A DNA stretch of 64,000 bases from Chiloscyllium plagiosum (Eukaryota). The DNA lies in contig NC_057719.1 of NCBI RefSeq assembly GCF_004010195.1, positions 42,709,024 to 42,773,023 on the forward strand. The letters are read 5' to 3'. The notes beneath the pieces are model-generated. The model searched no databases. It saw only the letters and a program-made list of their open reading frames with translations, and was not told the DNA's origin. Positions 1,365 to 59,038 of this stretch are shown here, one piece after another. The position numbers and the translations under genes were made by a program. Within the stretch, counting starts at the first letter, position 1, and each line of letters begins with the position of its first letter.

Positions 1365-1395
1365 AACCGTCATGTTGCTATGGTTTGGCGAGTCC

Positions 1396-1689
1396 AAGCA
1401 CCGCCTTCCTAACCTGCAATCTTCTTCCTGATCTCTCCGCCCCCACCCCACTCCGGCCTATCAACCTCACCTTGACTTCCTTCCACCTATCGCATTTCCA
1501 ATGTCCCTCCCCCAAGTCCCTCCTCCCTACCTTTTATCTTAGTCTGCTGGACACACTTTCCTCATTCTTGAAGAAGGGCTTATGCCCGAAACGTCGATTC
1601 TCCTGTTCCTTGGATGCTGCCTGACCTGCGCTTTTCCAGCAACACAGTTTCAGCTCTGATCTCCAGCATCTGCAGTCCTCGCTTTCTCC
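1396..1689 (+). mobile_element. Penelope-like element 3' terminus with degenerate hammerhead motif
   Basis: C-rich tract, then TTGAAGA-A-GGGC-TTAT-GCCC-GAAA-CGTC (core C mutated) and GATGCTGCCTGACCTGC...CCAGCATCTGCAG tail; same family as 35935 and 50894. Confidence 0.75.
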
Positions 1690-4365: not shown

Positions 4366-5574
4366 CATTATCCCTATTCAGGAAGTGGATTTAGATTGTT
4401 GCAAACTGAAGGGGACTGGTTAGCATTTGCAGATAACTTTAATAATGTTTTTGCTTGTTTGCTGAATGTGAACAGTGGTAGAAATATCAGAACTATTGTT
4501 TCTGCTCAGTTCCTGGTGGGTTGCGTTCTTGAACTGCTGCAGTCCTCATAGTAATGGTGCTCCCACAATGATTAAATAGGGAAAGCAGCATTTTCTCTGA
4601 GCAATAATAAATTAGATGTTATATTTATTCATTTTAGCATGGTATGCCTCTTGGGTAACAAGTGATGTCTTCCCCTGCTAGCCCTATTTTCCAAATTTGG
4701 TGGCAGAGGTTGTCAAATCCTATTGAAATGCTGTTGCATGTCAAGAGCAGGGCTATGACTACGTAATGAGCTGTGAGTTGTTCTGGCAGATTCGTCAAAT
4801 AGCTTATTTATCAGTAGCTGGTGACTAGCATTTACTTTTCATTTGGAATTGGTCTAAACCAAGATGGATTGAAATGAAAGGATATCTTTTATTTTCTCTG
4901 CCTTTCTCTTTTGCGTTGTCCTGTGCTCTATGCCGTCTTCAAAAAAGAAAGGTCAAATAACTTTCCAAACCTGTCTCTAATCATGCTATATAATGAGCTG
5001 CTAGTTTTTTAAACAAATTTTTCCTACCTTCCCTTTCTCCCTCCCACAGGAGAAGTCATGTGAGCATTGTTCAGAAAACTGGAATGACTAAGATCAGAAA
5101 GTTGAGATTGCAGGTTTCTGCTCCAACCCTCCTGTTTCATAATGCAGTAGTTTCAACAGTCAGCATACTGACACTGTGGACTGACTCATGCAGTTTTTAG
5201 TAACACAAAACTTTCGGGAGGAAAAAAAACTTTTGTTCTGCCGACAATTGCATGTGGCAGTAAGGCGCAAAGGATTCTGAAAGTTATAGGATTTATTGAC
5301 TATACCTATTTATACAGTTATATTTGAGTAACATTGTGAAACTAAGTTAAGCTATCCACTGCCATGCTTCTTGCTGTTTGTTCTTTACCAATACTCCAAT
5401 TCCTTCACTGGCAGTTGATTTCAGAATTTTCTAAATTGGAGAACTGCAAGAGATGTGAATTAACTTTTTAAAAATTCTAATAGAAATGTAATTCCTTAAA
5501 TAATTGGATGATCAAAACTGAATCACCCTATGCACACAAATGGTTAATTAGAACAGTAGGTACAACTATCAACA

Positions 5575-6445
5575 TGGTAAAACCAGATGGCCTCCTTCTT
5601 TAGAGATTGCAATTTCCCTTCCCACGTGGTTAAAGATGCCCTCCAACGCATCTCGTCCATATCCCGCACCTCCGCCCTCAGATCCCACCCCTCCAACCGC
5701 CCATCCTGGCACTTTCCCCTGCCACCGCAGGAACTGCAAAACCTGCGCCCACACCTCCTCCCTCACCTCTATCCAAGGCCCTAAAGGAGCTTTCCACATC
5801 CATCAATGTTTTACCTGCACATCCACCAATATCATTTATTGCATCCGTTGCTCCCGATGCAGTCTCCTCTATATTGGGGAGACTGGATGCCTCCTAGCAG
5901 AGCGCTTTAGGGAACATCTCCGGGACACCCGCACCAATCAACTTCTCCGCCCTGTGGCCCAACATTTCAACTCCCCCTCCCACTCTGCCAAGAACATGGA
6001 GGTCCTGGGCCTCCTTCACTGCCGCTCCCTCACCACCAGACACCTGGAGGAAGAACGCCTCATCTTGCACCTCGGAACACTTCAACTCCAGGGCATCAAT
6101 GTGGACTTCAACGGTTTCCTCATTTCTCCTTCCCCCACTTCACCTTAGTTCCAAAAATCCAGCTCAGCACTGTCCCCATGACTTGTCCTACCTGCCTATC
6201 TTCTTTTCCACCTATCCACTCCACCCCTTCACCCTCCTCCCTGACCTATCACCTTCATCCCCTCCCCCACTCACCTATTGTACTCCATGCTACTTTCTCC
6301 CCACCCCCACCCAGCTCTAGCTTATCTCTCCACGCTTCAGGCTCTCTGCCTTTATTCCTGATGAAGGGCTTTTGCCCGAAACGTCGATTTTGCTGCTCCT
6401 CAGGTGCTGCCTGAACTGCTGTGCTCTTCCAGCACCAATAATCCA
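5575..6445 (+). mobile_element. Penelope-like element, 5'-truncated, with GIY-YIG endonuclease region and HHR-bearing terminus
   Basis: ORF 5636-6148: CxxxxCxxC...IIYCIRCSRCSLLYIGETG...RFREH...VAQHFN...EEERLI..LGTL...GIN; 13-bp TSD ACAACTATCAACA at 5562-5574 and 6446-6458. Confidence 0.9.
6354..6389 (+). ncRNA. Minimal type I hammerhead ribozyme motif (PLE-associated)
   Basis: CTGATGA-A-GGGC-TTTT-GCCC-GAAA-CGTC: intact core boxes, 4-bp stem II, palindromic ACGT in place of stem III, GUC cleavage triplet. Confidence 0.7.
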
Positions 6446-7035
6446 ACAACTATCAACAAGGCAGCAATGTAAGGCGTGTCTTCATACAGCACAGCTAACC
6501 AATGCCTATCTGTCTGTCCTATTTGCTGGCTGAGGTTTGTTCTTGTTTTCTGCTGTGGAATGCATACCCATTGTTTTAATTAACTTCATACTATCCTTCC
6601 ACACACAACATTGTTTGGAAAAGAAAGATAATTAATAAAACACACAGCAAATGCATCTACCAGGCAGTATTAGCAGATTGGTGATGTATAAACAAGCAAG
6701 AATAAGTGAAATGATTTCTATGTTCGGTCACATCTCGCTGCGTAGTAGTGAGAAAATACCTGTTTACATAAAGAGATTATGAAATTTCACATCTCTTCAA
6801 CTTTATGTAAGACTCCAGCTTTAACATTTGTCATGTTTCCCCACCACAAAATTTAATTTCAATTTAATTTTACAGCTGAGTAGCACAATTAAATTAATCA
6901 TTAAGAAAGCACAATTAACTATATAGCAGAGTTGAAAATTTATTCCATTTTTACAGTAACAGTAATCTAAACTTCTATGCACGGCTGTTTACATAACTGA
7001 CATAATGATATTGTAGGTCACTTGAAACAAAGAGG

Positions 7036-10967: not shown

Positions 10968-11071
10968 GTGAGTATTAAATTTGGTGCAAAAGTGTTGGTG
11001 ATAAAAGTTGTCAAGTAAAATATTGCCTTGTTCTTCTGACAATCCACCATTTTTTGCTTTTCTCTTAACAG

Positions 11072-13935: not shown

Positions 13936-16900
13936 CTATCAAAATTCTTCTCATCTGCTGTACTCTGAAGTTTTCTCCTTGTCAGATCAGTTAACAAGAC
14001 AAATGTGAAATGTAAAAATAAAACTGGAATTTTTTTGGGTGTAAAAGGGTTAGAATCATGCCAATGTGAAGCTGATGCAAGATGAGAATCAAGTTATTCT
14101 GAAGAATGTCCAGCCCTCTAAAATCTATAGTGACATTTCCATTGTGCACCAATCTACCATACAGTGCTCCAAGGCATGAGGGCTAGTATAGGATGGTAGC
14201 TTAATAATCAAGATCATTTATTTGCAGCAATGTCCAGTAATTATAGAAAACAATGTAAAAGATATTCTGAGGCATCTGCAACTCTAAGAATTGTCATTCA
14301 GCAGATTATTTTTCAATCCTCCTATTGAGTATCTGGATAAGGCTAGTGGAGCCTTGCACTACAAACCAACTGGGGTCTCCAGCATCTTTGCAATTTACTG
14401 CCTGCTGCAAAATACCCCGTTGGTAGGCTTACTTATTCCAGAAATAAAGGGTTTTATGAGCCATCTGGTATGTGGTGTGGAAATGTGTTTCCATCCCAGT
14501 GCCATGAAAAATATGTGAAGGAATGGGAGAAATTAGCTCAAGACAACAAGGAACAAAAAAAACAACAGTGGTTTCAATGAGTAAACATTGGAATATCAAC
14601 CAAAGGCCCTTGGCACCTTTTGATCTTAACCAGCAGCCTCAAAGCGACCCTAATTATCAAAGATGACTTCAAATTTCTTCATAAAACAGAAATCTTTAAC
14701 CCTCCCTCCCCCAGCTTTGGTTTCTATGCTCAAAACTAAATCTGTAATTGTTTGGTGAAACCATATTTGCTTTTCATAACAATTCCCGTCTTTACTACTA
14801 CTACCACCATCACTTTTTGTTGTTATATTGACCCTTTGTTAGTTAACTTGCTTGCTGAAATCCTAATTCAGTACTTCCAATGATTCATGCTCATATGAGG
14901 TTTAGTAATAGATAGGTATGTCAGTTTCACTGAACCTTAGAGCTCTGAGGGGATTCTCGTTTGAGACTTGCTTTCAGTAGCCATTCTCCTGAAGTGGTGC
15001 AAGGTCCTCTATCAATATCTGAAATTTTCTGATGCCTGTGTCAGATGGTGCCTTTGAAAAATAGGCTGAATGCTTTCTCTGAAATGTCTGACCATTCTTT
15101 GGAATATGCTGATGCTGATGATATCATTACAAACAAATTATGTTCTCACTCAGTTTAGAAGTTATGAGGAAGTCTAGTATTCGGGGGAGTTCTTGATTCG
15201 GCATCTCTATTTACACTGACTCTCTTTGAGATATACCTTTTCATGTATTGTTTGGGTGTTCATGGGCTGATAGAGATGATAGCAACTGTCATTTAACTTC
15301 CAGAACCCTTAGTGACCATCCCGTAGAGTTCCCTGTTTTTAGTGCCCATAAGGAAGAAAATGTTACCCGCAATGTCTTCACATTGCTCTCGTTGCCGTCA
15401 TTCCTGGTTTCTTATCAATTGCAGGAAAATTCGGCAAAAGGCCAAAAGTATTAGATAAATAAAACCAAAGTGTGGGAGAAATTCAATAGGTACTGGTGGT
15501 TTTTGTTGAAGAGAGAAAAATAGTTAATGTTTTCAGTTTAACAACACTTCTTTGGAACTGATTTTTGTTTTAGATTTCCAGCATCCGTGATATTTTGCTT
15601 TTAAGAGCGTATTATTTATTCTACTTTTATGAATGCTACACTAAATCTTAACAATGCACTTCTAAGAGGCTCTATCCAGTGCCTCAGTAGAATGCATTTA
15701 CATAGTGGTTCGCCTACCAAGGTGCTGTTGGGAATGTTATCATATATCATAACCATCTCTTTACAGGGTGGGAGATGAATGAGTATTGTCAATTCCAGAA
15801 TATCGTTGGAACAGACTTTTGGAAAGGTTGTTTTAATATGTAGAATGGTGTGTGGAGTAGATGATTGTGAAGAATTAAATAACTAATATTCAACATATAT
15901 TTGTTATTAGATATTCTTGTCTTACCTTGTAATCAATGCCATAAAACTTTATAAATAGGCACAGTAATTGACTCCATCTTTTCATCATCTGTAAAACAAA
16001 ATTGTTGCAAACCAAAAAGATGAATGTTAGCAGTTGTCTTGTTAAAGACTTAGATTTTATTTCACTCCCTTCTAATCTTATTGAGATTTAATCAAACTTG
16101 TGATGTCTGGTACACTAACAAAATCAAATTTGGGTGTGACCAAGTATGTTTACTATTAACTTTTATTTTGGTGGGGAGTTCCTGGAATTCTCTTACTAAG
16201 GAAACTGTGGGGTGTTTAATGAGCTTGATTGAAATGTTATGTTTTGCTTTCTCTGATACCTCCTCTGGCTATTTTATAATCAGGTTACCACAAACTGGAG
16301 ATTAAGTGGAGATTGGTCTTGTGCTTCAAAAACAATGCCCTCTTGTTATCTGGGACTAAATGCAGCTTTACTTCTTCACAGGTTTAAAATGTTGGTCAAA
16401 TGTCTCATTTGTCTGCGGACAAGTGGGAGGGGGAAAGAAGTTGTATCCCTATGAGCAACTTTACAAAGCACTGTTACTAACTAACCCCATGGCTATGAAA
16501 CTCTCAGTTGTTTCAAAGCATTTTTTTTTAAATAATAGAAGTCAAGATTCATACAAATGCAATTTATTTCTTCCTCATTCAATTTTAAAGGGGATGGAAG
16601 ACGAGAGAGATAATTACAAATATTTGTGTACGTATCTTTGAAAACAAGCTAATGAAACATTAAAAAATCAGGTAGGATTCTGGTCTCTTTAGACAGAGGT
16701 GAAATGTATGAAATACAGGAACTGATGCTGAACCTGTATGAAACAGAAGTTCAGTGCCAGCTGGATTATTGTACTCAACTAGATATGACATTTTAGGAAT
16801 GATATGAAAGTTTTAGAGAGGGTACAGAGAAAATCTGACGGAAAGAGGATTACAGTTCAAGAGCTTTATTAGAGAAGCTGTATTATTTTCCTTAAAGTTG

Positions 16901-20953: not shown

Positions 20954-23550
20954 TTGAAAGAAGCAAAAATGGCCCTTAGTAGAGTGATATGCTGCTCTTG
21001 TCGGATGTGGGAGTTTGGGGAGAGTTTACGGGTTACTGAGGATTACATCTGCAATAAATGCTGTTGTTTGCGAATCCTATTAGATCGAATGGATCAGTTG
21101 GAGAGGCAGTTAGAGGCAATGAGGAATTTACAAGAGCAAGGGGATGTGATGGATGGCAGTTATAGGAAAAGGGTAAGGTCTCAGATACAGTCACATAGAA
21201 GGTTAACTCCAGGAAAGGTAAGAGAGGGTGGCAGCGAATGCAGGAGTCTTCTGTGGCTATTGCCATTTCAAACAAGTATGCTGGTTTGAAAAATGTACAT
21301 GGCAATGGATTCTAAGGGGAATGTAGCACGATCGGCCAAGGTTCTGGTATTGAGACTGGCTGTAATGTACGTCGGGTTCCATGCAATCGATTGTGTTAGG
21401 GGACTGTCTAGTCTGAGGTACTGACAGCAGCGAAAAATCATAATGGTGTGTTGCTTCCATAGTGCCAGGATCAAGGATGTCTCAGAGAGAGTGCAGAATG
21501 TTCTCACAGGGGAGAGAGGCCAGCAAGAGGTTGTTGTACACATTGGAACCAACGACATTGAATAGGAAAAGGTTGAGATTCTGAAGGTTTAGGCAGGAAT
21601 TTAAAAAGGAGGTCCTTTTTAATTGGAAGGGGACTAATATACTGGCAGGGAGATTTGCTAGAATTGCTCATGAGGATTTAAACTAGTAAGGTGGGGGGTG
21701 GGGTGGAACCCAAGGAGATAGTGATGAAAGATTTCAATCTGAGACTGACACAGTTGAGAACAAAGTCAAACAGTCAGGGCGGGCAGAGGCAAAGCAGAAA
21801 GCAAAGTAGGATAGATAAATTAAACTGCATTTATTTCAATGCAAGGGACCTAACACGGAAGGCAGATGAACTCAGGGCATGGTTAGGAACATGGGACTGG
21901 GATATCATAGCAATTACAGAAACATGGCTCAGGACTGGCAGCTTAATGTTCAAGGATACAAATGCTACAGGAAGGATAGAAAGGGAGGCAAGAGAGGAGG
22001 GGGAGTGGCGTTTTTGATAAAGGATAGCATTACAGCTGTACTGGGGGAGGATATTCACGGAAATACATCCGGGGAAGTTATTTGGGTGGAAATGAGAAAT
22101 TAAAAAGAGATGATCACCTTATTGGGATTGTATTATAGAACCCCTAATAATCAGAGGGAAATTGAGAAACAAATTTGTAAGGAGGTCTGTTATTTGTAAG
22201 AATAATAGAGTGGTTATAATAGGGAATTTTAACTTTCCAAACAAACACTGGGACTGCCATAGTGTTAAGGGTTTAGATAAAGAGGAATTTGTTAAATGTG
22301 TACAAGAAAATTTTCTGATTCAGTATGTGGATGTACCTACTAAAGAAGGTGCAAAACTTTACCTACTCTTGGGAACTAAGGCAGGACAGGTGACTGAGGT
22401 GTCAGTGGGGGAGCGCTTTGGGGCTGTTTTAAAAAATTCTCAAGGTCAGGTTCGTAGGAGAGTAGTCTGACACAGAACAAACGACCAAGAGGCGAGTCTG
22501 CTAGAATATGGGCATTTTATTCCCCGCAGCGTCGCCACAACGGGTCTGGCTTATACTCACTCTACATGTTACCGGAACTGGGAGCCGTCAGTTCTCGTAG
22601 AGCGGTTGCCAACAACCCACGCTCGGCGGTTAAACGTAACCCCGGAGCAGACTCACCAAACTGGAGACTTTTCCAGCTGATATACTCTTTTCCAGATATA
22701 AACATTCATGTGAACAGCAGAGCAAGGCTAAAAAACACATTCCTACAAATACATTAAGTACAAAAGGGTAACTAGGGAGAGAATAGGGCCCCTCAAAGAT
22801 TCGCAAGGCGGCCTTTGTGTGGAGCTGCAGGAGATGGGGCAAATACTAAATGAGTATTTTGCATCAGTATTTACTGTGGAAAAGGACATGGATGACATAG
22901 AATGTAGGGAAATAGATGGTGACATCTTGAAAAATGTCCGTATTACAGAGGAGGCAGTACTGGATGTCTTGAAACACAATGTTGCAGCGTTACAGATCAT
23001 TGGTTAGGCCATTGTTGGAATATTGCATGCAATTCTGGTCTCCTTGCTGTCGGAAAGATGTTGCGAAACTTGAAAGGGTTCAGAAAAGATTTACAAGGAT
23101 GTTGCCAGGATTGGAGGATTTGAGCTATAGGGAGAGGTTGAATAGGCTGGGGCTGTTTTCCCTGGAGCGTCGGAGGCTGAGGGGTGACTTTATAGAGGTT
23201 TATGAAATCATGAGGGGCATGGATAGGATAAATAGATAAAGTCTTTTCCCTGGGGTGGGGGAGTTCAGAACTAGAAGGCATGGGTTTAGGGTGAGAGGAG
23301 AAAGATATAAAAGAGACCTCAGGGGCACCTCTTTCAAGCAGAGGATTGTGCATGTATGGAATGAGCTGCCAGAGGAAGTGTTGGAGGCTGGTACAATTGC
23401 AACATTGAAAAGGCATTTGGATGGGTATATGAATAGGAAGGGTTTGGAGGGATATTGGCAGGTGGGACTAGATTGGGTTGGGATATCTGGTCGGCATGAA
23501 TGAGTTGGACCGAAGGGTCTGTTTCCATACTGTGCACCTCTATGACTCTA
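20954..23550 (+). mobile_element. CR1/HER1 LINE spanning ORF1 to 3'UTR, internally deleted and interrupted by an LTR
   Basis: ORF1 zinc finger/zipper (CCSCRMWE...YICNKC...LERQL) and esterase-like VVVHIGTNDI; ORF2 APE start (CIYFNARDL...DIIAITETWL); RT core missing near 22978; ORF2 C-terminus and TATGACTC tail. Confidence 0.9.
22425..22743 (-). mobile_element. Truncated LTR, same family as the solo LTR at 43529-44008
   Basis: Starts TGTTTTAAAAAATTCTCAAGGTCA like 43529 and aligns through AAAAAACACATTCC; ORF-track peptides 22566 and 43696 share their N-terminus. Confidence 0.85.
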
Positions 23551-27379: not shown

Positions 27380-30060
27380 GTCTATCAGATAGATGACAGT
27401 GACCTAAGTCCGTCTTCATCTGGCAACTCTCCTCCTGTAAGCAACTCATCTGCTTCACTCACTGATATTTTACCAAGAGGATCTTTACTGCTTTACTCCC
27501 TCAGTCTCTGCATACAATAGCTTCTTATCTTCTGTGATTTCAACCACAATCTCAACTCATGCTCTCTCTCCACTGAGTTCACTGTCCTCTTATCCTCGCT
27601 CAATCTCTACTTTCATTTAAACTGCCCAACTCAGAGCCAACCTCTTGACCTTCCCATCCCATGGTTTTGCTGGTTCTCTCATATTAATCTGATAGATAAG
27701 GCCATCTCTGATTGCTTAGTTTTATCATGTATATTCCCTCCACGTGCCTCTGCATCTTTTTCTACTTTGCCTAAAAAGCTCCTCTTCATTTTGCTTACAA
27801 CTCCAGTGTCAAAACCTCAGCTGTCAAGCTTTTAATCTTCTGTGCAGCACAGCATTTCTGCAGCTAATGATTGTTCAACTGCACCCTCACCTCCACATTT
27901 GATCCCACAGTTCCCAATAAAACCATTGCTTTTTTTCACCCTGGACATTCCCCTGCTATAGATCACATCTGCACTCCTTGAGCAACTAGTGTAGCCATTT
28001 TTTTGCCAGATTTCGCTAGGTCACACATGGCAAAGTTGGTCCTTGTTTTAAGCTGCTCCCTATTTTAGGGTCATTCTGGAATGCAGCAAATAGCCAGTGG
28101 CTTCTTATCTGTACTGCAAACCATCTTTTTAAACTCCTTTCCAATGTTCTTCCTCATCTCTAATAAGCATGAGAGCTTCATGAACTTCTTTGTGAATAAG
28201 ATTATAATCCTATTTGAGCAACTGCCTCTACCTCATCCCTCCATTCCAATGGCCCACCATTGGAATATCCATTAGCCTGCTCTACACTTGCACCTTTGTC
28301 TAGTTTCTGACATGCCCTGCCTGAACTCATCTTGTCTATGCAATATACATTTTGCTCATGCAACCTAATTTCCCCTAAATTGCAGAGTATTCAAGTTTCT
28401 TTTCTGGTACTCATGCTAGCCAATAATCTTGATGTGTCACTTTCTTCAGGTCTTTGTTCCTATCCTATAAATTTGCAGTTATTCCCCCCTTCCCTCAAAA
28501 AATTAATCTTTGGCCCAGTTTCCTTGAAAATTACTGCCCCATTTCCAATCTCTCTTTCATCTTTTAAGTCCTTGAAAACATTGTCACTTTCAAAACCCAT
28601 GCCCATAATTCATGGATTTTCATGTTTGTATCTATCAAATCAGGTTTCCACTCCCGGATCAAATGAAGTCTTAAATCTCAAATGGCATCTTGTGTGCTTA
28701 CAATAAAGGTAAACCTGCCCTTCTTATCAACTTTACCTGTCTGCAATCATTGACACAATTAATCTAATTAACCAACTGCCATCTTCCCATACCTCTGCCA
28801 TTGTCCAGCTTAATGGGGGTTGCTCTCATTTGGTTCTGTCCTTATTTATCTGATCAAAGCCAGATTATCACTTCCAGTAGCTGCTTTTTCCAATCCCACA
28901 GTAATATTTCTGGCATCCCCCGAGGATGTTTCTTTGGCCCTTTTACTATCTCTTGTCTTTCTGCTGCTTGCTGTGGGCAAAGAATTGTGGGGCTTGAGGA
29001 GATTACTGAGACAGGAATGGGTAGGGCCAGAGGAACTTGGAAACAAGGATGAGAATTTTAAGATCAAGTAGGCAATAATTTTCACAATGACACCCACTTC
29101 TAACTTACCACCACCTTTGTGCACTCCTGCAGTGGTTTTTAAATTATCTGATTGCTTATATGAGATGCTGTACTGAATAAGGAGAAATATCCTCCAATTA
29201 AATATTGAGAAATCTGAAGCAGTGTGCATATTAAGAACTGTTACCCATGTTAGATGAGTGACTGCATTTCTGAAATGCTTAATTGCCCAGGGAGCATTTT
29301 AAGATATCCTGTGAAAGCATTGTAAAAATTTCAAGTATTTCATTTTTTCTTTTGTTTCAAATCCCTGCTCCAAGGTCATTTTCTAGCTGCCAACTCTATC
29401 CAAATACCCGACAACAGTCTGAAACTAATTTAGATTGTCCACAACCATTGTATGACCTTTGACATGGAGATAAGCTGTTAATCACGCATTCATGCCATTA
29501 CTAAAATAGGCTATTTCCATCCTCTGTAACATTGTCCAACTTCCCCCTGTCTCATTCATGGCCTCTGTTACCTTTAGCCTTGACCATTCAAATGCATTCT
29601 GCTGGTCTCCCCCTTTCCATCCTCTATAAACCTGCTGCTGTATCTTCACTCTCACCAAATCCCCTTAGACAATCAGCCCCATGCTTCCTGACCAATGTTG
29701 CCTACTTGATCTTAAAATTTTCATCCTTGTTTCCAAGTTCCTCTGGCCCTACTCATTCCTCTGTCTCTGTAATCTCTTCAAGCCCCACAATTCTTTGAGA
29801 TATTTGGTTTCATATACTTATGGTCTCTCGAGCATTCCAAATTTTAATCACTCCAGTATTGGTGCTGCCAAAACTGTTGAACTCCCTTCTTACACTGATA
29901 TTTCCTTCTTTAAGACACTTCTTACAGCCTGCTTCTTTAACAAGGCTTTTGGCTATCTCACCTGATATCTTATGTGGTTTTATAATACTGCTGTGAAGTA
30001 CTTCAGGATACTTTACTTTATAATACTGCTGTGAAGTACTTCAGGATACTTTACAAGTTG
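27380..30060 (+). mobile_element. Highly decayed L2-like LINE
   Basis: Pyrimidine-rich; remnants such as CTCATTTGGTTCTGTCCTTATTTATCTGATC, CTCCAATTAAATATTGAGAAATCTGAAGC and ATTTTCATCCTTGTTTCCAAG typical of L2 ORF2. Confidence 0.5.
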
Positions 30061-34452: not shown

Positions 34453-34766
34453 CCATATTAATCCCACTCACTAGCCTCTTCTCCATTTTTCTCTTTCAGC
34501 TATTTGCTTTTGTAAGCTTCTATTGAAACTCATTCCATCATCCTGTCAGCCAGTGTTCAAAATCTTAACCATTCATTGCATCATTGTTTGTTTTTTTTCT
34601 TGTAATCTGATTCTTTTGCTAATCTCTTCAAATCTGTTTAGTTATTGTCCCTTCAGTTGTGTTTTTTTTAAATCTTATTATTTACTTAATCTGAATCTTT
34701 CATGATTTTAAACACTTTATCAAATCTTGTCTGCTTTAAAGAATGCAGCCCCACCACCTTCACAAG

Positions 34767-34931
34767 TAAATTACTGCAGATGCTGGAAATCTGAAATAAA
34801 AACAGGAAATAGCTGGAAATACTCAGCAGGTCAGGCAATATCTGTGGAGAGATATTGCCTGAATTGCCAATTAATGTTTCTCTCTCCACAGATGCTGCCT
34901 GAACTGCGAAGTATTCCAGCACTTCCTGTTT
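34767..34931. mobile_element. Older palindromic element made of two inverted PLE-like termini
   Basis: 34800-34852 is an imperfect inverted repeat of 34881-34931 (GCTGGAAATACTCAGCAGGTCAGGCA / TGCCTGAACTGCGAAGTATTCCAGC). Confidence 0.65.
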
Positions 34932-35920
34932 CTACAGTTGAGCAATGTAACTGTAATCTTTATCCATACATTGTGGTCCTAAATTAATCTCTGTATCCTC
35001 TCCAGTAGGATATCCTCTTCACTAGTTGAACTAGTGGTTTATGTAGGTTGACAATAACATTGCAATGTTGATTTATAAAACCTAGTGTTCTATTCGTCCT
35101 GTTTTTTTTAAAAAAAATCTTTGTTAATATGTCCTGTCACTTGCAAAGATTTGTGCACAACAATTTGTGCATATTCTCTCTTGTTGCCCCCCCCCCCCCC
35201 CCAAAATGATACCATTTAGGTATTTTACCTCATTCTTCTGACCATAATGTATCACCTCACTTTTCTGCTTTGTTTTTCCATCTGTCTTATCTCCTCCTAT
35301 TTCATCACCTGCCTGTAGCCATTTGAAGTCTACTTCTATCTTCATCGTTGCTTACTATACTTCGAAGTTATGTGGTATCTGCAGGTTACAAAATAGTGTC
35401 TTCATACTCGAAAGCTAAGTGTCCAATGCATGTTAAGAACTGTAGTGGTCTGGATACTGAACCCTGGGTAAAATCACAACTTACCACTATCCAGTCTGAA
35501 AAATAGCCTTTCACTATGATATTCTATGTTCATATCTTGGCCAATCTAGTATCCATGCTGCTACTACTTTTGTCTTCAAATTTGTTAATCAGTCTGTTCT
35601 TAGAAAATCCATATCAACAACATTAATTGTACTGCCACTTCATGTTATATTATCGAGGTTATGATATGCAATACATACTGTAAGATCCTAAGCTGTTTAT
35701 AGAGTTAATTTTAACACTGCAAATCAAAAATAGATGCCTATTACAATAAGTAAACTGCTTGCAAGTTTAGTTTTATTAATTCATTACTAACCCAATAGCG
35801 CAAAAGTGAGTGCTGAAGCTTCAACCTAGAGCAAAATTAATTTTCTCTTTTGTTTGGTGAAATGCTGTTATCAGCAGTTGAAATGTTTGTACTGAGGAAC
35901 TTCAGTTGAGATGTTTGTAC

Positions 35921-36025
35921 TGAGCCCTTCTTCATTCCTGAAGAAGGGCTCATGCCTGAAACGTCAATTCTCCTGCTCCTTGAATGCTGCCTGACCTGCT
36001 GCGCTTTTCCAGCAACACATTTTCA
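35921..36025 (+). mobile_element. Fold-back mini-insertion of a PLE terminus with HHR motif
   Basis: 14-bp hairpin 35921-35934/35939-35952; CTGAAGA-A-GGGC-TCAT-GCCT-GAAA-CGTC; flanking TGTACTGAG at 35916-35924 and 36030-36038. Confidence 0.8.
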
Positions 36026-36744
36026 TTTCTGTACTGAGGGACGATCCACTTTGAATTGTAGATGCTAATAGTAGAGTTAGATGCAGATTGAACATTTACT
36101 CTGTATTTCCAATCAGTGTCACTGGGATAAAATCCTGAAACACAGCCCCACCACATGGACCGCAGCAGTTCAAGGAGTCAGCTCATCACTTTTTATGGGC
36201 AATTAGAGATGAAAATAAATGCCGGCCTTGCCAGCCAAATGCAAGATTAGTTTTGTAAAAATGACTTTGCCCAATCTTAGCATGGTGCCAACCATCTAAC
36301 TGATGCCCACCAAAAACCAATCACTGTCAAATTGGAGACAATTTACTGTTATTGGCGCTTCATTGAGTATGTACAGCCAGCTGTCATTTGAGACCTTTAT
36401 AGGTAGTAGACAGAGTATATATCAGTTCTGAAAGTCTAGACTGGAAGTTAACCTCAGTGACAAAATGAAAATGTCAGAAATAACCATTATAGTAATAAAT
36501 CAAACAGTAGATGTATCACTTTAACTCAATATTTTTCATATATCTGGTTGCTTTCTGTCTCCATTCTGCTTTTTATTTTAACTTCTTCATTTCTGTCTAA
36601 TTTATCTTTACTAGCTATTCTAAACCTTGATCCAGATTTATTAGGACATTTTGTGATGTTTCCTGTTGGATAAAAGTTGTGCATTTAGGTTAAATAAAAA
36701 ATGTACATAAAGTCACTGAAATTGAGAGCTAACAATGATGCATT

Positions 36745-40317: not shown

Positions 40318-41920
40318 ATAGAGTCATACAGCACAGAACTGATTTTTTGGTCCAACCAGTCCATGCTGACCATAGTCCCAGACTAAAGCAATCCCACCTG
40401 TCTGTGCTTGACCCAAATCTCTCCAAATCTTTCTTATTCATATACTTATCTAAATGTCTATTAAACATTGTAAGTGTACCACATCTGCCACTTCCTCTGG
40501 AAGTTCATTCCACACAGAGCAATTCTGAGTTTAAATTAAAAAAAAGTTGTCCCTCATGTCCATTTTAAATTTTCCTCCTCTCGCCTTAAAAATATGATCC
40601 CAAGTCTTGAAATCTTCCACCCTAGGGAAAAGGCAGCTGCCATTCATCTAATTATACCCCTCATGATTTTAAAAACCCCTACAAGGTCACCCCTCAACCT
40701 CCTACTCTTCAGTGAAAAAAGTCCTAATCTGTCCAGCCTCTCCCCATAACTCAAACCTTCCATTCCCAGCAACATCCTGGTAAATCTTTTCTGAACCCTC
40801 TCCAACTTGCTAATACCCTTCCTATAACAGGGCAACTGGAACTGGGTGCATATCCAGAACAGCCCTCACCAACATCATTATAAGCTCAGCATGACTTCCC
40901 AACCCCTGTACTCCGATGTCTGAGTCATGAACATGCTGAACACCTCCTTAACCACCCAATCTACATATGATGCAAACTCCAAAGAATTATGTACCTGAAC
41001 CCAAGGCCTCTCTGTTCTACAACACCATCCAAAGCCCTACTTTTAATTATATAAGTGTAATCCTTATTTGTTTTACCAAAATGCAAGACCTTGCATTTAT
41101 CCAAATTAAACTCCATTTTCCACTCTTTGGCCTATTGGCCCAACTGATCAAGATCTCGTTATAATCTCAGATAACCTTCTTTACTGTCCAATACATCACC
41201 AATCTTTATGACATCTACAAATTTACTATCCATGCTTGTTCATCTAATTCATTTATATAAATGACAAACAAAAGCAGACCCAGCACCGATGCCAACAAAA
41301 ATCAAAATTGCTGGAAAAGCTCAATAGGCCTGGCAGTATCTGTGAAGAGAGATCAGAGTTAACATTTTGGAACTGATCACAAGGGAACATCACCGGTATC
41401 AGGCATGCAGTCCAAGGCAACAAACGTCCACCACCAAGCTCATCCTGAATCCCATGTGATCTAATTTTTCTAATTAGTCTACCATGCAGAACATTTCAAA
41501 GACTTTACTGAAGTCTAATAAAACCACATCCACAGCTCTGCCTTCATCAATCTTTTGGTTACTTCCTCAAAAACTCAATCATGATGGCGAGATATGATTT
41601 CTCTCACACAAAGCCATGCTGATTATCCCGAATTATATCTTGTCTGTCCAAATGCATGTAAATCATATCTTTCAGAATCACATCCAGTGCGATGTCAGAC
41701 TCTCAGATATATAGTTCCCAGGATTCTCTTTACATCTCTTTTCAAACAAAGGCACATCAGCAACTCTCCAGTTATCTGGCATCTTGTCTGTAGTTAGAGA
41801 CAATACCAATATTGAAAGGGCCTCACAATTTCCTCGCTAACTTCCCATAACGTCCTGAGATACACAAGATCAGATCTTGTTGATATATCCACCTTTATGT
41901 TTTCTAAGACTTCCAACAAA
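40318..41920 (-). mobile_element. CR1 LINE fragment (RT to 3'UTR), decayed
   Basis: Minus-strand ORF 40644-40835 LERVQKRFTRML...RRLRGDL; tail at 40318. Confidence 0.85.
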
Positions 41921-46062: not shown

Positions 46063-46349
46063 CAATCAACACAATCATTGATCCTGATGGATCTCTGGAT
46101 GCCTTGACTGGTAATCAGATCTCGCCAATTTCCACTTCTTCAATGAATATGAAAGAAAGGACTGCTAATACTGTGGACTCAAAAGATTTGCCAAAATCAA
46201 CAGCACAGATACTGAAGGAATGTGCTCAGCAAGGTTCTAAACCATCCCAATTGTCTTCGGATGCTGACAGCATTGACTCTGACTCAGAGTGTAATACTCA
46301 ATATACCATGATTGAGCCAAAAATGGAAGATACAGTCACTATGCTTTGA
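46063..46349 (+). CDS. CEP170B: CEP170B last coding exon to stop codon
   Basis: acag|CA ATC AAC: (A)INTIIDPDGSLDALTGNQ...MEDTVTML TGA(46347-46349). Confidence 0.93.
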
Positions 46350-50030: not shown

Positions 50031-50469
50031 GGGCAGCACAGTGACTCAGTGGTTAGTGCTGCTGCCTCACAGCACCAGTACCCAGGTTCGATTCCACCCT
50101 TGGGTGACTGTGTGGAGTTTGTGCATTCTCCCTCCTTGTGTCTAGGAGGATTTGCTCTGGTTTCTTCTCACAATTCAAAGATGTGCAAGTTACCTGGATC
50201 GGCTATGCTAAATTGCCCACAGTGTCTAGGGATGTGCAGGCTAGGTGGGTTAAAACAATGACTGCAGATGCTGGAAACCAGATTCTGGATTAGTGGTGCT
50301 GGAAGAGCACAGCAGTTCAGGCAGCATCCTAGGAGCTTTGAAATTAGCCACGCAAAATGCAGTTTTAGAGGGATAGGGTGCTGGGTATGAGGGGATGCTG
50401 TTTGGAAGGTCATTGTAGACTAGATGGACTGAATAGCCTCTTTCCACACTGTAGGGATCCTATGACTCT
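50031..50469 (+). mobile_element. V-SINE interrupted by a PLE tail fragment
   Basis: GGGCAGCACAGTGACTCAGTGGTTAG...GGTTCGATTCC head; CCACACTGTAGGGATCCTATGACTCT tail. Confidence 0.8.
50252..50336 (-). mobile_element. PLE extreme 3' tail fragment (family of 5575-6445)
   Basis: Reverse complement GCTCCTAGGATGCTGCCTGAACTGCTGTGCTCTTCCAGCACCACTAATCCA matches 6395-6445 and extends 34 nt further. Confidence 0.8.
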
Positions 50470-50741
50470 AAACGCTGAATACCTGAAAGAGCTTTTCTTT
50501 AACAGATGTTTCTCTCTATAAAGCATGCTGGAAGTTTCTTCAAGTATATTGCAAGTTAAAAGTACATGATATAGAAGTATTGTCCCACCTCAGGGTAGGA
50601 TTTTGGATATCTGTTGAATATATAGGTTCTTGAAGTCATCACAAAAGTTTTTTTTAAAAATTAAAGATAACAAAGTACCCAATTTACCTGTTGTTAGATA
50701 AGCCCAGGTTAACCAAAAACTAGATTTCTGTACTTAACAAG

Positions 50742-52607
50742 AAGAATTAAGGAGAATCCAAAGAGTTTTTACAAATACCTTATGGACAAAAGGGTAACTA
50801 GGGAGAGAATAGGGCCCCTCAAAGATCAGCAGGTCAGGCAGCATCCAGGGAACAGGAGAATCGACGTTTCGGGCATAAGCCCTTCTTCAGGAATCCTGAA
50901 GAAGGGCTTATGCCCGAAACGTCGATTCTCCTGTTCCCTGGCTGCTGCCTGACCTGCTGCGCTTTTCCAGCAACACATTTTCAGCCCCTCAAAGATCAGC
51001 AGGGTGGCCTTTGTGTGGACCCGCAGAAAATGGGGGAGATACTAAATGAGTATTTTGCATTAGTATTTACTGTGGAAAATGATATGGAAGATATAGATTG
51101 TGGGGAAATAGATGGTGACATCTTGCAGAATGTTCATATTACAGAGGAGGAAGTGCTGGATGTCTTGAAATGGGTAAAGGTGGATAAATCCACAGGGCCT
51201 GGTCAGGTGTATCCTAGAACTCTGTGGGAAGCTAGAGAAGTGATTGCTGGGCCTCTTGCTGAGATATTTGTATCATCGATAGTCACAGGTGAGGTGCCGG
51301 AAGACTGGATGTTGACTAACGTGGTACCACTGTTTAAGAAGGGTGGTAAGGACAAGCCATGGAACTATAGACCAGTGAGCCTGACGTCGGTGGTAAGCAA
51401 GTTGTTGGAGGGAATCCTGAGAGACAGGATGTACATGTATTTGGAAAGGCAAGGACTGATTAGGGATAGTCAACATGGCCTTGTGCATGGGAAATCATGT
51501 CTCACAAATTTGATTGAGTTTTTTGAAGAAGTAACAAAGAGGATTGATGAGGGCAAAGTGGTAGATGTGATATATAGATGTCAGTAAGGTGGTCGACAAG
51601 GTTCCCCATGGGAGACTGGTTAGCAAGGTTAGATCTCACGGAATACAAGGAGAACTAGCCATTTGGATACAGAATTGGCTCAAAGGTAGAAAACAGAGGG
51701 TGGTGGTGGAAGGTTTTTCCAGACTGGAGGCCTGCAACCAGTGGAGTGCCACAAGAATGGGTTCTGGGTCCTCTACTTTTTGTCATTTATATAAATGATT
51801 TGGATGCGAGCATAAGAGGTACAGTTGGTAAGTTTGCAGATGATAACAAAATTGGAGATGTAGTGGACAGTGAAGAAGGTTACCTCAGATTACAACAGGA
51901 TCTGGACCAGATGGACCAAATGGCTGAGAAGTGGCAGATGGAGCTTAATTTAGATAAATGCGAGGTGCTGCATTTTGGGAAAGCACCTTTATTGGTCAGA
52001 GTATTGAGTACAGGAGTTGGGAGGTCATGTTGCGGCTGTACAGGACATTGGTTAGGCCACTGTTGGAATATTGCATGCAATTTTGGTCTCCTTCCTATTG
52101 GAAAGATGTTGTGAAAATTGAAAGGGTTCAGAAAAGATTTACAAGAATGTTGCCAGGGTTGAAGGATTGGAACTACAGGGAGATGCTGAACAGGCTGGGG
52201 CTGTTTTCCCTGGAGAGTCGGAGGCTGAGGGGTAACCTTATAGAGGTTTACAAAATTATGAGGGGCATGGATAGGGTAAATAGGGAAACTCTTTTCCCTG
52301 GGGTCGGGGTGTACAGAACTAGAGGGCATAGGTTTTGGGTGAGAGGGTAAAGATATGAGACCTATGGGACAGCGTTTTCACACAGAGGGTGGTACATGTA
52401 TGGAATGAGCTGCCAGAGGAAGTGGTGGAGGCTGATACAATTGCAACACTTAAGAGGCAATTGGATGGGGAAATGAATAGGAAGGGTTTGGAGGGATGTG
52501 GATCCAGTGCTGGCAGGTGGGACTAGATTGGGTTGGGATACCTGGTCGGCATAGATGGGTTGGACCGAAGGGTCTGTTTCCATGCTGTATATCTCTATGA
52601 CTCTATA
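50742..52607 (+). mobile_element. CR1/HER1 LINE 3' half (RT domain) with nested PLE palindrome
   Basis: KSTGPGQVYPRTL...NYRPVSLTSVVSKLLE...QHG...SCLTNLIEFF; GPLLFVIYINDL...KFADD; C-terminus and TATGACTCTA tail; frameshifted. Confidence 0.92.
50827..50983. mobile_element. Palindromic PLE-terminus insertion with two opposed HHR motifs
   Basis: 66-bp inverted arms 50827-50892 / 50894-50959 with 1 mismatch; 20-bp direct repeat 50814-50833 / 50984-51003. Confidence 0.9.
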
Positions 52608-57404: not shown

Positions 57405-57499
57405 TGTATGAAAACAGAAATAAAGCTCAGTAGGGCTGGTAGCATCTGTAGAGAGAAATCAGCGTTAATGTTTCGTGTCCAGTGACCCTTCCTCAGAAC
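57405..57499 (-). mobile_element. PLE-like terminus (third family) with degenerate HHR motif
   Basis: Reverse complement GTTCTGAGGA-A-GGGTC-ACT-GGACAC-GAAA-CATTAACGCTGATTTCTCTCTACAGATGCTACCAG. Confidence 0.55.
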
Positions 57500-58667
57500 C
57501 TGGAAACAGTAATAGAACCCTAGTACTATGGTGTTATATTAGAGAAGTATTGTAAACTGAAAAGGGAAGTAAGGGAAATTTAAGCGGTAGTTTTATTGAC
57601 AGTTTCATCACATCACAACAGCTGCTTTCGTCTGAACTCAACAGTCATTCTCGGTTACATAGTTACGAGCAAGGCCACTATGCTGTTTTCAGCATCGGTA
57701 AGTTTAAATACCAATTTTTTGTTTTGAAAAGTTTCAATGAGTTGTCCATGTGTTGTTCCATGCATCTTTTTCTTAAAACAATTATTGTATAAATTAATTT
57801 TTTTGTCTTGTGTTTTGATGCTGTTTTGCTTGCCCTTTCTTCAGTCTGCCAGTGGGTCACTAACTTTGTGGAAACCAGATTAACTTTGTGAAGGCAGCCT
57901 CCCAATAATAAGGACAGGGCTTCCAATAATCCAAGCAGGCCCAGTGGCCTCTCCAGTTTACCTGGGTACAACAGCACCTGCACAATGCCTGCAGAAGATA
58001 ACTTTAAAGAGGATGGAAAGGGGACACCTCCCTTTTAAAGCACACTCTTCAGCCATTTGCCTTCCTTTCCACTTGCTGACATCTTCAAAGGAAGAAACAG
58101 CCAAGTAGGATGCTAAATTTTAATATATTAAATGTGCTGTTCCAGCAGAGCCTGAAAATTGTGATTAGTGCCTCTGATGAAAATAATACAAAGAAAAGCA
58201 ATGTAAGCTTAAAGGAAATAATATTGCAACCCAAAGTAACACTTTACCGTCACTATTTTAAGGCACAAAATCCATGTAGTAGACTAACAAATGGTTGATT
58301 AAAACAAGTCCAATGGATCCATCATCTTTTAAGTACATAACATTATAAAATAAACTTCAGTGTTATCTATTAGTTGTGACCAAGAAATTAATTGTGGCTT
58401 TAGCTGTAAAGTAACAACTTGACATGTCTTTCTTGATAATTCATTTTGTAACCAACTCCATTTGTTATCAATCTTGACCAGTGGGTGGGATAATTTAGCA
58501 GTTGTTATTTAGATGCTGATGATCTGGTAATGGGAGAGTACAGGAGCTGTGTTCTGTTCAGCATAACAAAACAGGATTTAATTCTAAAAATAATAAAATG
58601 ATTGAGAAAATCCTTTAGATCTCCAATGGCTTAGATGCTGACTATTTATTACTATTTAGTAACTTTT

Positions 58668-59038
58668 TTACTGTAGCTTGTTTTGAGCTGTGCAAATGAG
58701 ATTTCCAATTCTATCTCTGTGTATCAACATTTGGAGATAATATTGAATGATTTACAACTTTGGGAGAAATTTCTAATCTTTTTAAACACTGACTGTGTGT
58801 GAGCTGCAGAAGTTTGTCACACTAGATTAGATTAGATTAGATTAGATTACAGCGTGGAAACAGGCCCTTCGGCCCATTACTGTAGCTTGTTTTGAGCTGT
58901 GCAAATGAGATTTCCAATTCTATCTCTGTGTATCAACATTTGGAGATAATATTGAATGACTGTGTGTGAGCTGCAGAAGTTTGTCACACTAGATTAGATT
59001 AGATTAGATTACAGCATGGAAACAGGCCCTTCGGCCCA
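58668..59038. repeat. Tandem duplication of flank plus SINE tail (209 bp and 162 bp)
   Basis: 58668-58876 repeated at 58877-59038, with a 42-bp deletion, one fewer TAGAT unit and one substitution. Confidence 0.9.

What the first reader, a model, noticed from the sequence alone, without database searches (positions are those of the whole stretch)
50814..51003. Near-perfect palindromic insertion carrying two opposed hammerhead motifs, with the TSD overlapping the inverted arm
Seen: inside a CR1 ORF2 there is a ~157-bp insert with 66-bp inverted arms (50827-50892 / 50894-50959, one mismatch, 1-nt spacer). Each strand carries an intact CTGAAGA-A-GGGC-TTAT-GCCC-GAAA-CGTC motif. A 20-bp direct repeat GCCCCTCAAAGATCAGCAGG flanks it (50814-50833, 50984-51003), and its last 7 nt (CAGCAGG) are also the start of the inverted arm. 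Known: Penelope-like elements carry minimal type I hammerheads in their pseudo-LTRs and often have inverted 5' segments. Inference: this is a non-autonomous, ribozyme-only PLE mini-element. RT would reach the template 5' end just upstream of the HHR core, fold back on its own cDNA, and join the target through microhomology. Transcription from either strand would include an HHR, although the 66-bp hairpin would compete with ribozyme folding.
Basis: partly seen in the sequence, partly recalled or inferred. Interest (0 to 1): 0.7.

Follow-up and report, generated by a model that had tools for sequence, protein, structure and literature searches.

The report
Head-to-head Penelope stub, ribozymes locked
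This 150-base mirror-image insertion is real and consists of two back-to-back copies of the hammerhead-bearing end of a very abundant repeat that is most likely a Penelope-like jumping gene, a layout already in print; it was likely built on landing from two DNA copies of the element's RNA, and its two ribozyme motifs are predicted to be locked in a hairpin and inactive.

Summary
Observation confirmed: 66-bp arms (one mismatch), a minimal hammerhead motif on each strand, a 20-bp direct repeat, and an empty site in a sister CR1 copy. Both arms are the end (pLTR) of a repeat family laid by 53,000-94,000 contigs per DNA run; a sister family in the window follows a GIY-YIG endonuclease frame. Head-to-head pLTRs with a TSD and a one-sided tail are published Penelope-like element (PLE) architecture. 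A self-copying mini-element is not supported: a second copy has a 16-nt arm and another axis, and the ribozyme fold is predicted to cost over 50 kcal/mol against the hairpin. Fold-back from the long arm is disfavoured: it needs three specific untemplated bases or a later substitution, whereas two cDNAs primed from the two target ends, each running to the RNA's likely capped start, anneal to give this junction exactly. The TSD is 18-20 bp, the microhomology 5-7 nt. No read bridging the insertion was seen. The scan noted this structure before on other DNA (156 findings, at least 16 genomes), many proposing two-ended priming. New here: the polarity of the central base as a test between the models.

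The parts
50814..50833 (+). Left copy of target-site duplication (18-20 bp; last 5-7 nt shared with the outer end of the inverted arm)
   Evidence: CR1 family sequence at the site table 7
50827..50894 (-). Inverted arm: pLTR from its likely first transcribed base (family position 1564) to about +68
   Evidence: alignment to the native copy 1564-1629 (that copy lacks 3 nt here)
50893..50893 (.). Axis base; top strand reads as cDNA run to the template start, bottom strand as native sense; fits an A.A mismatch resolved one way
   Evidence: mechanism inferred
50894..50985 (+). Forward arm: pLTR from family position 1566 to 1652-1654, ending at the boundary of the 35-nt tail; last 2 nt (GC) shared with the right TSD
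   Evidence: tail boundary tables 5 and 7
50891..50928 (+). Minimal type I hammerhead motif: stem I 50891-50895/50924-50928 (perfect only because the junction supplies the 5' strand), core from 50896, 4-bp stem II, no stem III, predicted cut after 50923
   Evidence: descriptor features from PMC4209133
50858..50895 (-). Minimal type I hammerhead motif with the native stem I (one U.U mismatch), core from 50890, predicted cut after 50863
50984..51003 (+). Right copy of target-site duplication
50740..52350 (+). Host: 5'-truncated, frame-broken CR1-type LINE ORF2 (3' end not mapped); its left junction is shared with a related species
1390..1689 (+). Longer, non-inverted copy of the same family: pyrimidine-rich upstream region, initiator-like motif with A at 1564, hammerhead, 35-nt tail 1655-1689 (used as reference)
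35916..36038 (+). Second head-to-head copy of the same family: about 16-nt inverted arm, 3-nt overlap at the axis, forward arm also ending at the tail boundary, 9-11-bp TSD sharing 4 nt with the arm end
5562..6461 (+). Sister family (82-84% identical pLTR): 5'-truncated PLE with GIY-YIG frame, pLTR with hammerhead at 6358, 13-16-bp TSD
   Evidence: PF01541 E 1.9e-4, just under the curated cut-off

Best explanation
The feature is a 150-bp insertion, flanked by a target-site duplication, of two head-to-head copies of a hammerhead-bearing repeat end that is most likely the pLTR of an endonuclease-positive Penelope-like retroelement; it is likely a dead one-off product, likely built at insertion from two cDNAs. 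Inferred steps: (1) the element's enzyme nicks both target strands about 18-20 bp apart; (2) the bottom-strand end primes on the uncut RNA at the inner start site (tail boundary, about +92 to +94, 2 nt of homology) and the top-strand end primes further in (about +68) where 5-7 nt of target match the RNA; (3) both cDNAs run through the hammerhead to the RNA's 5' end, likely a capped transcription start at the A of family position 1564, and likely gain a C opposite the cap; (4) the two 3' ends are complementary over their last 5 nt apart from a central A.A mismatch, so they anneal, are filled in, and repair of the mismatch leaves the 1-nt spacer. Because the arms cover the same bases, this needs two RNAs (dual priming) or one RNA read twice, not classical L1 twin priming. 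The hammerheads are passengers: the hairpin is predicted to bury them in any transcript. Confidence in the identity (PLE pLTR stub with inverted partner) is about 0.93; the figure below is for the two-cDNA mechanism.
For: Shown: arms, TSD and empty site. Family abundance, 56,115, 52,708 and 93,939 contigs laid in three DNA runs. Depth over the core is 14, 23 and 7.5 times that just upstream in DNA runs and 7 times in raw RNA reads; in raw reads depth rises from 246 at 1560 to 671 at 1568; loose 5' ends cluster at 1564, 1569, 1573 and loose 3' ends at 1689. An initiator-like YYANWYY (consensus recalled) has its A at 1564, and at the same place in the sister family and in copy 2; background 1.3% per base. 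Of 6 opposite-strand joints shown, 5 join a core 5' end to 1648-1656, 4 of them to 1654-1656, i.e. an inverted tail alone, as expected when two start sites are used from two strands (table 5). Plurality letters of loose ends repeat this locus's junction: TTCAGG before 1564 (203 contigs, X11) and AATCC before 1569 (292 and 336 contigs, X2 and X13), at low agreement 0.33. Beyond 50893, 6 of 10 rows shown (5 of 9 distinct junctions) carry a non-native G just 5' of 1564, 1 the native base (table 5c; about p 0.05 by hand at 1/4). Enumeration: fold-back of the long-arm (bottom) cDNA gives the observed axis only with one specific untemplated triplet of 64; fold-back of the top cDNA fits but cannot supply the 24 extra bases of the long arm; two annealed cDNAs give it in 8 ways, including both at 1564 plus C. 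Both arms share variant 1610C, carried by 15% of depth in this species and about 1% in two relatives. Published: a purified PLE protein cuts and extends both strands, starts internally at two sites that bound the tail, uses uncut RNA and is predicted to be a dimer (PMC11167929); microhomology at the outer and inner junctions marks twin/dual priming of L1 (PMC2912911, PMC2837659); a reverse-transcribed cap gives an extra 5' G (PMC2912911).
Against: The discrimination at this locus rests on one base; a single later A/T change at 50893 would make fold-back from the long arm fit exactly, and the arms already differ at 1 of 66 sites. Copy 2 fits fold-back on a native 3-bp/4-nt-loop hairpin as well as two cDNAs. 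The short arm ends at neither of the family's two main 3' ends but at a microhomology, which end-joining after fold-back also predicts, and PMC11167929 reports initiation without homology to the target. The cap signal is weak, from rows picked by depth (56 hidden), and table 5c does not give the kind of joint. The depth step is inflated by sister families that match only the core. The opposite-strand joints are few, low-depth loci (15 of 77 joints shown), and no symmetric-axis joint is among them. The link of this family itself to an endonuclease frame is indirect (upstream similarity to the sister family reached by 5 of 1000 shuffles). The shared variant fits one template, hence fold-back too.
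Confidence: 0.6

Rival explanations
1. Fold-back (self-priming): one cDNA primed on the bottom strand reaches the RNA start, folds on itself, copies back 66 nt and is joined to the top-strand end by microhomology (first reader; self-priming is also the hypothesis of PMC3846280). The element is still a dead one-off insertion.
For: Both arms share the minority variant 1610C; the short arm is nested in the long one except at the axis; copy 2 matches a native fold-back hairpin; 5-7 nt microhomology at a non-standard position; cDNA plus cap C can close a 3-nt loop with one G-C pair.
Against: That fold-back puts the cDNA-type central base on the bottom strand; the window has it on the top strand. 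Without a later substitution it needs one specific untemplated triplet. A 1-bp stem is a poor primer (inference). Inverted-tail-only joints at 1654-1656 are not natural fold-back products.
Confidence: 0.22
2. A standard two-ended insertion whose inverted arm first carried the tail (start at +129) and later lost its outer 61 or so bases by deletion between the CAGCA(GG) of the TSD and the same letters in the arm.
For: Tail on one arm only is the published norm (PMC3846280, PMC8557442) and is seen at 34765-34935; microhomology-mediated deletions are common in PLE copies (PMC3846280).
Against: Needs a second event in a young copy (exact TSD, one arm mismatch); copy 2 shows the same short-arm-plus-microhomology anatomy.
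Confidence: 0.1
3. A non-autonomous palindromic mini-element that is itself transcribed, self-cleaves and is mobilised as a unit.
For: The junction geometry seems to recur (loose-end letters); the plus-strand motif gains a perfect 5-6-bp stem I; non-autonomous PLE derivatives exist (PMC8557442; bioRxiv 10.64898/2026.07.22.740005).
Against: Arm length, axis and ends differ between the window's two palindromic copies; hairpin -141 to -146 kcal/mol against -88 to -90 with the hammerhead stems enforced; recurrence of the axis is explained by a fixed RNA start.
Confidence: 0.05
4. The inverted arm is an assembly or library artefact.
For: No listed contig bridges the junction without differences.
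Against: Exact TSD with the LINE resuming in register, one mismatch between arms, asymmetric arms, a second such copy nearby, published architecture; the left flank up to the LINE is identical in two independent runs (records 1 and 25), where short-word assembly is expected to break.
Confidence: 0.03

Closest known systems
Insertion units of endonuclease-positive Penelope-like elements (Pen2a_Av of Adineta vaga, PMC3846280; general scheme, PMC8557442 Fig. 2 legend)
   Same: Inverted 5'-truncated copy adjacent head-to-head to a pLTR, palindrome at the inverted junction, whole unit flanked by a TSD, optional 30-40-bp tail, hammerhead in the pLTR.
   Different: No ORF at all: only +1 to +94 of the leader; neither arm carries the tail; 1-nt spacer; short arm ends in target microhomology.
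Minimal type I hammerheads of metazoan PLEs (PMC4209133)
   Same: CUGANGA core, extra base before stem II, G10.1-C11.1 pair, palindromic 15.2-16.2 positions, no stem III, short stem I; that paper also notes pairs on opposite strands about 100-700 bp apart.
   Different: Stem II is 4 bp; the two motifs are back-to-back inside one perfect hairpin, predicted unable to fold; activity untested.
PAc (Poseidon of Anolis carolinensis) in vitro, PMC11167929
   Same: Internal start sites bounding the tail; both target strands cut and extended; uncut RNA as template.
   Different: PAc starts without target homology and prefers AT-rich sites; here the junctions show 2 and 5-7 nt of homology in a purine/GC-mixed site; the sister family's CxxxxCxxCxH linker points to the Neptune/Nematis type rather than Poseidon (my reading of PMC8557442).
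L1 twin priming and dual priming (PMC2912911, PMC2837659)
   Same: Inverted piece bounded by TSD, microhomology at the outer junction and short complementarity at the inner one.
   Different: Classical twin priming gives non-overlapping pieces of one RNA; here both arms cover the same bases, as only dual priming (a proposed, unvalidated variant) or re-reading would give.
Non-LTR retrozymes (bioRxiv 10.64898/2026.07.22.740005; PMC7229834 seen as listing only)
   Same: Short, ORF-less, hammerhead-bearing, PLE-derived.
   Different: Retrozymes are head-to-tail tandem units; this is a single head-to-head unit with a TSD.

Membership tests
EN+ Penelope-like element insertion | pLTR bearing a minimal hammerhead motif | tested here: met
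   Descriptor hits on both arms, 0 in 100 shuffles; features from PMC4209133
EN+ Penelope-like element insertion | Inverted 5'-truncated copy adjacent head-to-head, unit flanked by TSD | tested here: met
EN+ Penelope-like element insertion | 30-40-bp optional tail between two RT start sites | tested here: met
   Family 3' end at 1689, joints at 1654-1656; both window palindromes stop at 1652-1654; tail 35 nt
EN+ Penelope-like element insertion | pLTR linked to a GIY-YIG endonuclease / RT frame | tested here: inconclusive
   Met for the sister family (82-84% identical pLTR; PF01541 22.1 bits against cut-off 22.6); for this family no frame lies in the window, upstream similarity weak; PLE RT not seen
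Active hammerhead ribozyme | Core and stems able to fold in the transcript | tested here: not met
   Prediction only: +53 and +56 kcal/mol to enforce the fold; core paired during chain growth
Active hammerhead ribozyme | Self-cleavage at GUC as dimer or with protein | not testable with these tools
   No pile-up of read ends was listed (table 6), uninformative for this library
Rfam hammerhead families | Covariance-model match | tested here: not met
   No hammerhead family at E<=10 on the locus or on the native copy; expected for motifs lacking stem III (inference)
Non-autonomous mini-element / retrozyme | Copies share a fixed unit; tandem head-to-tail repeats | tested here: not met
   2 of 2 palindromic copies of this family in the window differ in arm and axis; no tandem array here. 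Small sample.
MITE | Terminal inverted repeats at both outer ends | tested here: not met
   The right 24 nt lie outside the inverted repeat; arms are a retroelement end
microRNA precursor | Rfam match at gathering score | tested here: not met
   Best 54.6 bits against 99; pairing only, no sequence match

The most novel reading that the evidence does not exclude
PLE palindromes with a 1-nt spacer are captured strong-stop intermediates: a dimeric enzyme primes from both cut target strands near the 5' end of uncut, capped RNA, both cDNAs copy the cap, and their ends anneal over five bases across an A.A mismatch. That would explain the inverted pLTR, the one-sided tail and the excess of leader stubs with one mechanism, and the polarity of the central base across thousands of genomic copies reads it out without any bench work.
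Probability: 0.35. Interest if true: 0.6.

Novelty: new member of a known kind. Interest (0 to 1): 0.3.

Why it matters
The object is one of very many dead stubs and matters little alone. How PLEs make their inverted ends is called undefined in PMC8557442 and was put down to self-priming in PMC3846280; these short, young, high-copy stubs keep the junctions exactly, and the central-base polarity gives a cheap yes/no test between fold-back and two-ended priming. The locus also shows that counting hammerhead motifs overstates working ribozymes: a motif can be intact and still be predicted to lie buried in a hairpin.

Tried and rejected
No whole genome was held, so the genome-wide census could not be run. 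Pattern scans found 0 loci in metagenome contigs, viral contigs (35, 40) and prokaryote genomes (39). Rfam gave only miRNA-type hairpin matches below gathering score and no hammerhead family. Run search: no RNA holder listed. Raw RNA reads of the family lie on both strands with no pile-up of ends at the predicted cut site; the library cannot show this, so it is not used. Laying contigs on the left half of the locus did not show the empty or filled state in other individuals or species: unique contigs stop at 50767-50771 where the LINE begins, one relative's run has no cover of the flank, and the tables were cut. An intronic position was considered and rejected: the last CEP170_C-matching exon ends at 46349, about 4.5 kb upstream, with four AATAAA between; whether transcripts reach the insert is unknown. 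An inverted-tail remnant at the start of the sister-family copy (5575 on) was rejected as too short (patchy alignment, 2 of 2000 shuffles, part of it reads as native frame). Literature searches listed no paper that applies twin or dual priming to PLEs or describes these palindromes in sharks, judged from listings and the papers opened; the library lacks most subscription papers. A look-up of earlier notes for the cap-annealing/mismatch idea found 0 holding all words, which is weak. PMC5785220 was fetched by a wrong id and is irrelevant.

Full report
Observation. The coordinates hold. Arms 50827-50892 and 50894-50959 are reverse complements with one mismatch and a spacer A at 50893. The 20-bp direct repeat is exact, 150 bp lie between its copies, and a sister LINE copy at 22744-22974 holds the site once. 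Chance is negligible. The site lies about 4.5 kb downstream of the stop codon of a CEP170-family gene, not in an intron. That the organism is a shark rests on my recall of such repeats and on earlier notes, not on a test here.

Two refinements of the junctions. The LINE family reads CAGCA-AGG at the site (loose ends behind 50831 in 4 of 4 runs), so the duplication is 18 or 20 bp and the overlap with the arm 5 or 7 nt. The first two bases of the right copy also continue the element.

What the arms are. Both align to a longer copy at 1390-1689: the inverted arm from position 1564 for 68 nt, the forward arm from 1566 to 1652-1654. A sister family, 82-84% identical, follows a GIY-YIG frame at 5552-6148 (PF01541, E 1.9e-4, 22.1 bits against a cut-off of 22.6) inside a 13-16-bp TSD. 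A minimal-hammerhead descriptor hits four places in the window, two of them the arms, and none in 100 shuffles. Rfam gives no hammerhead family. Laying three DNA runs and one RNA run on the longer copy brought 56,115, 52,708 and 93,939 contigs and 2,956 reads (84-87% of the DNA runs and 2% of the RNA run were read). The family's 3' end is at 1689; depth over the core is 7 to 23 times that just upstream, an upper bound because sister families match only the core; loose 5' ends cluster at 1564, 1569 and 1573. The 35 nt from 1655 to 1689 fit the 30-40-bp tail of PLEs. Both arms carry variant 1610C (15% of depth in this species, 0.6% and 1.2% in two relatives), which fits a young, lineage-specific source.

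Not a unit that moves as such. The only other palindromic copy of this family in the window (35916-36038) has an arm of about 16 nt, another axis, a 9-11-bp TSD and 4 nt of arm/TSD overlap; the copy at 1390 has no inverted arm. The sample is two copies. Folding: the plus and minus transcripts give -141 and -146 kcal/mol hairpins, and enforcing stems I and II costs 53 and 56 kcal/mol. The antisense arm comes first in either direction, and the core is paired as it emerges. Minimal motifs of this kind were inactive as monomers and weak as dimers (PMC4209133) or needed protein (PMC11167929), and the second motif here is on the other strand.

Mechanism. Position 1564 is the A of an initiator-like motif (consensus recalled) in three copies from two families. 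I then enumerated routes to the observed axis. Fold-back of the bottom-strand cDNA, the one that holds the long arm, needs one specific untemplated triplet; fold-back of the top-strand cDNA fits with a single added C but cannot supply the long arm's extra 24 bases. Two cDNAs annealed by their 3' ends give the axis in eight ways, the neatest being both ending at 1564 plus C, with a 5-nt overlap and one central mismatch. Of six opposite-strand joints shown (15 of 77 joints shown), four join a core 5' end to 1654-1656, an inverted tail alone; these are low-depth loci. Loose-end plurality letters repeat this locus's junction in three runs at agreement 0.33. Against: one later substitution at 50893 rescues fold-back; copy 2 fits either model; the short arm ends at a microhomology, not at a main start site, unlike the long-tail/short-tail pairing reported in earlier notes, and unlike PAc, which starts without homology. 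I put two cDNAs at 0.6, fold-back at 0.22, later deletion at 0.1, a mobile mini-element at 0.05 and artefact at 0.03.

Assembly check. The unique left flank is identical in contigs of two runs of this species (records 1 and 25) and present with 7 differences and gaps in one relative (record 17), up to the start of the LINE. No listed piece bridges the insertion without differences; 105,023 pieces are not shown. The argument against artefact is therefore indirect.

Comparison with what is known. Head-to-head pLTRs, junction palindromes, TSD and one-sided tail are described in PMC3846280 (passages), which proposes self-priming, and PMC8557442 (passages), which calls the cause undefined. PMC4209133 (parts 1-2 of 4) defines the minimal hammerheads. 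PMC11167929 (parts 1-2 of 4) shows two-strand cutting and extension, two internal starts and uncut template. PMC2837659 and PMC2912911 (passages) describe twin and dual priming and cap copying for L1. bioRxiv 10.64898/2026.07.22.740005 (two passages and the abstract's start) treats retrozymes as PLE derivatives. No supplements were read; those of PMC11167929 (tail and start-site maps) and PMC4209133 may bear on the claims. My searches listed nothing applying dual priming to PLEs, within a library that lacks most subscription papers.

Earlier notes. My reading recorded before the look-up was a truncated pLTR with the usual inverted partner. The scan holds 156 findings with these words in at least 16 genomes, several proposing two-ended priming; they are unchecked and are not counted as support. 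I reuse that reading and the cap idea, each tested only in part.

Verdict. Real; a new member of a known kind; interest 0.3. The useful remainder is the central-base polarity test, which a whole-genome census could settle.

Noticed in passing
window 3062-46349 (+): Coding exons of a CEP170-family gene (CEP170_C profile 9-683 across frames at 11005, 19171, 30120, 33632, 42662, 46044); stop at 46349.
   Followed up: partly
window 5562-6461 (+): 5'-truncated PLE with GIY-YIG frame, a CxxxxCxxCxH motif before it, hammerhead at 6358 and a 13-16-bp TSD; tail absent at its 3' end.
   Followed up: partly
window 34765-34935: Older head-to-head pair of another pLTR family: the minus arm keeps the tail, the plus arm lacks it; hammerhead core decayed; no TSD found.
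   Followed up: partly
window 35886-35924: Left of copy 2 the TSD-containing stretch occurs twice (28 nt apart), so the flank carries an extra duplication.
   Followed up: no
window 50245-50336 (-), 41290-41375 (-), 57405-57515 (-), 15562-15585 (+): Further pLTR fragments of at least three families; the one at 57496 has a variant hammerhead-like core with a different stem II.
   Followed up: no
run X5 record 27, on window 50803-50877: A 74-nt contig crosses from the LINE into the inverted arm with 5 other letters and 1 gap: a divergent allele or an independent insertion at the same LINE position, which would point to a microhomology-driven hot spot.
   Followed up: no
window 1564-1567 and 1597-1600: The two strands of hammerhead stem I are the same four letters; several multi-copy joints link 1595-1607 to 1564 (table 5c), kind of joint not given.
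   Followed up: no
window 29979-30054; 58823-58849: Exact 38-bp tandem duplication; short TAGAT repeat.
   Followed up: no
window 28846-29070 and 29669-29800: Two near-copies of a segment with an open reading stretch on both strands, not identified.
   Followed up: no
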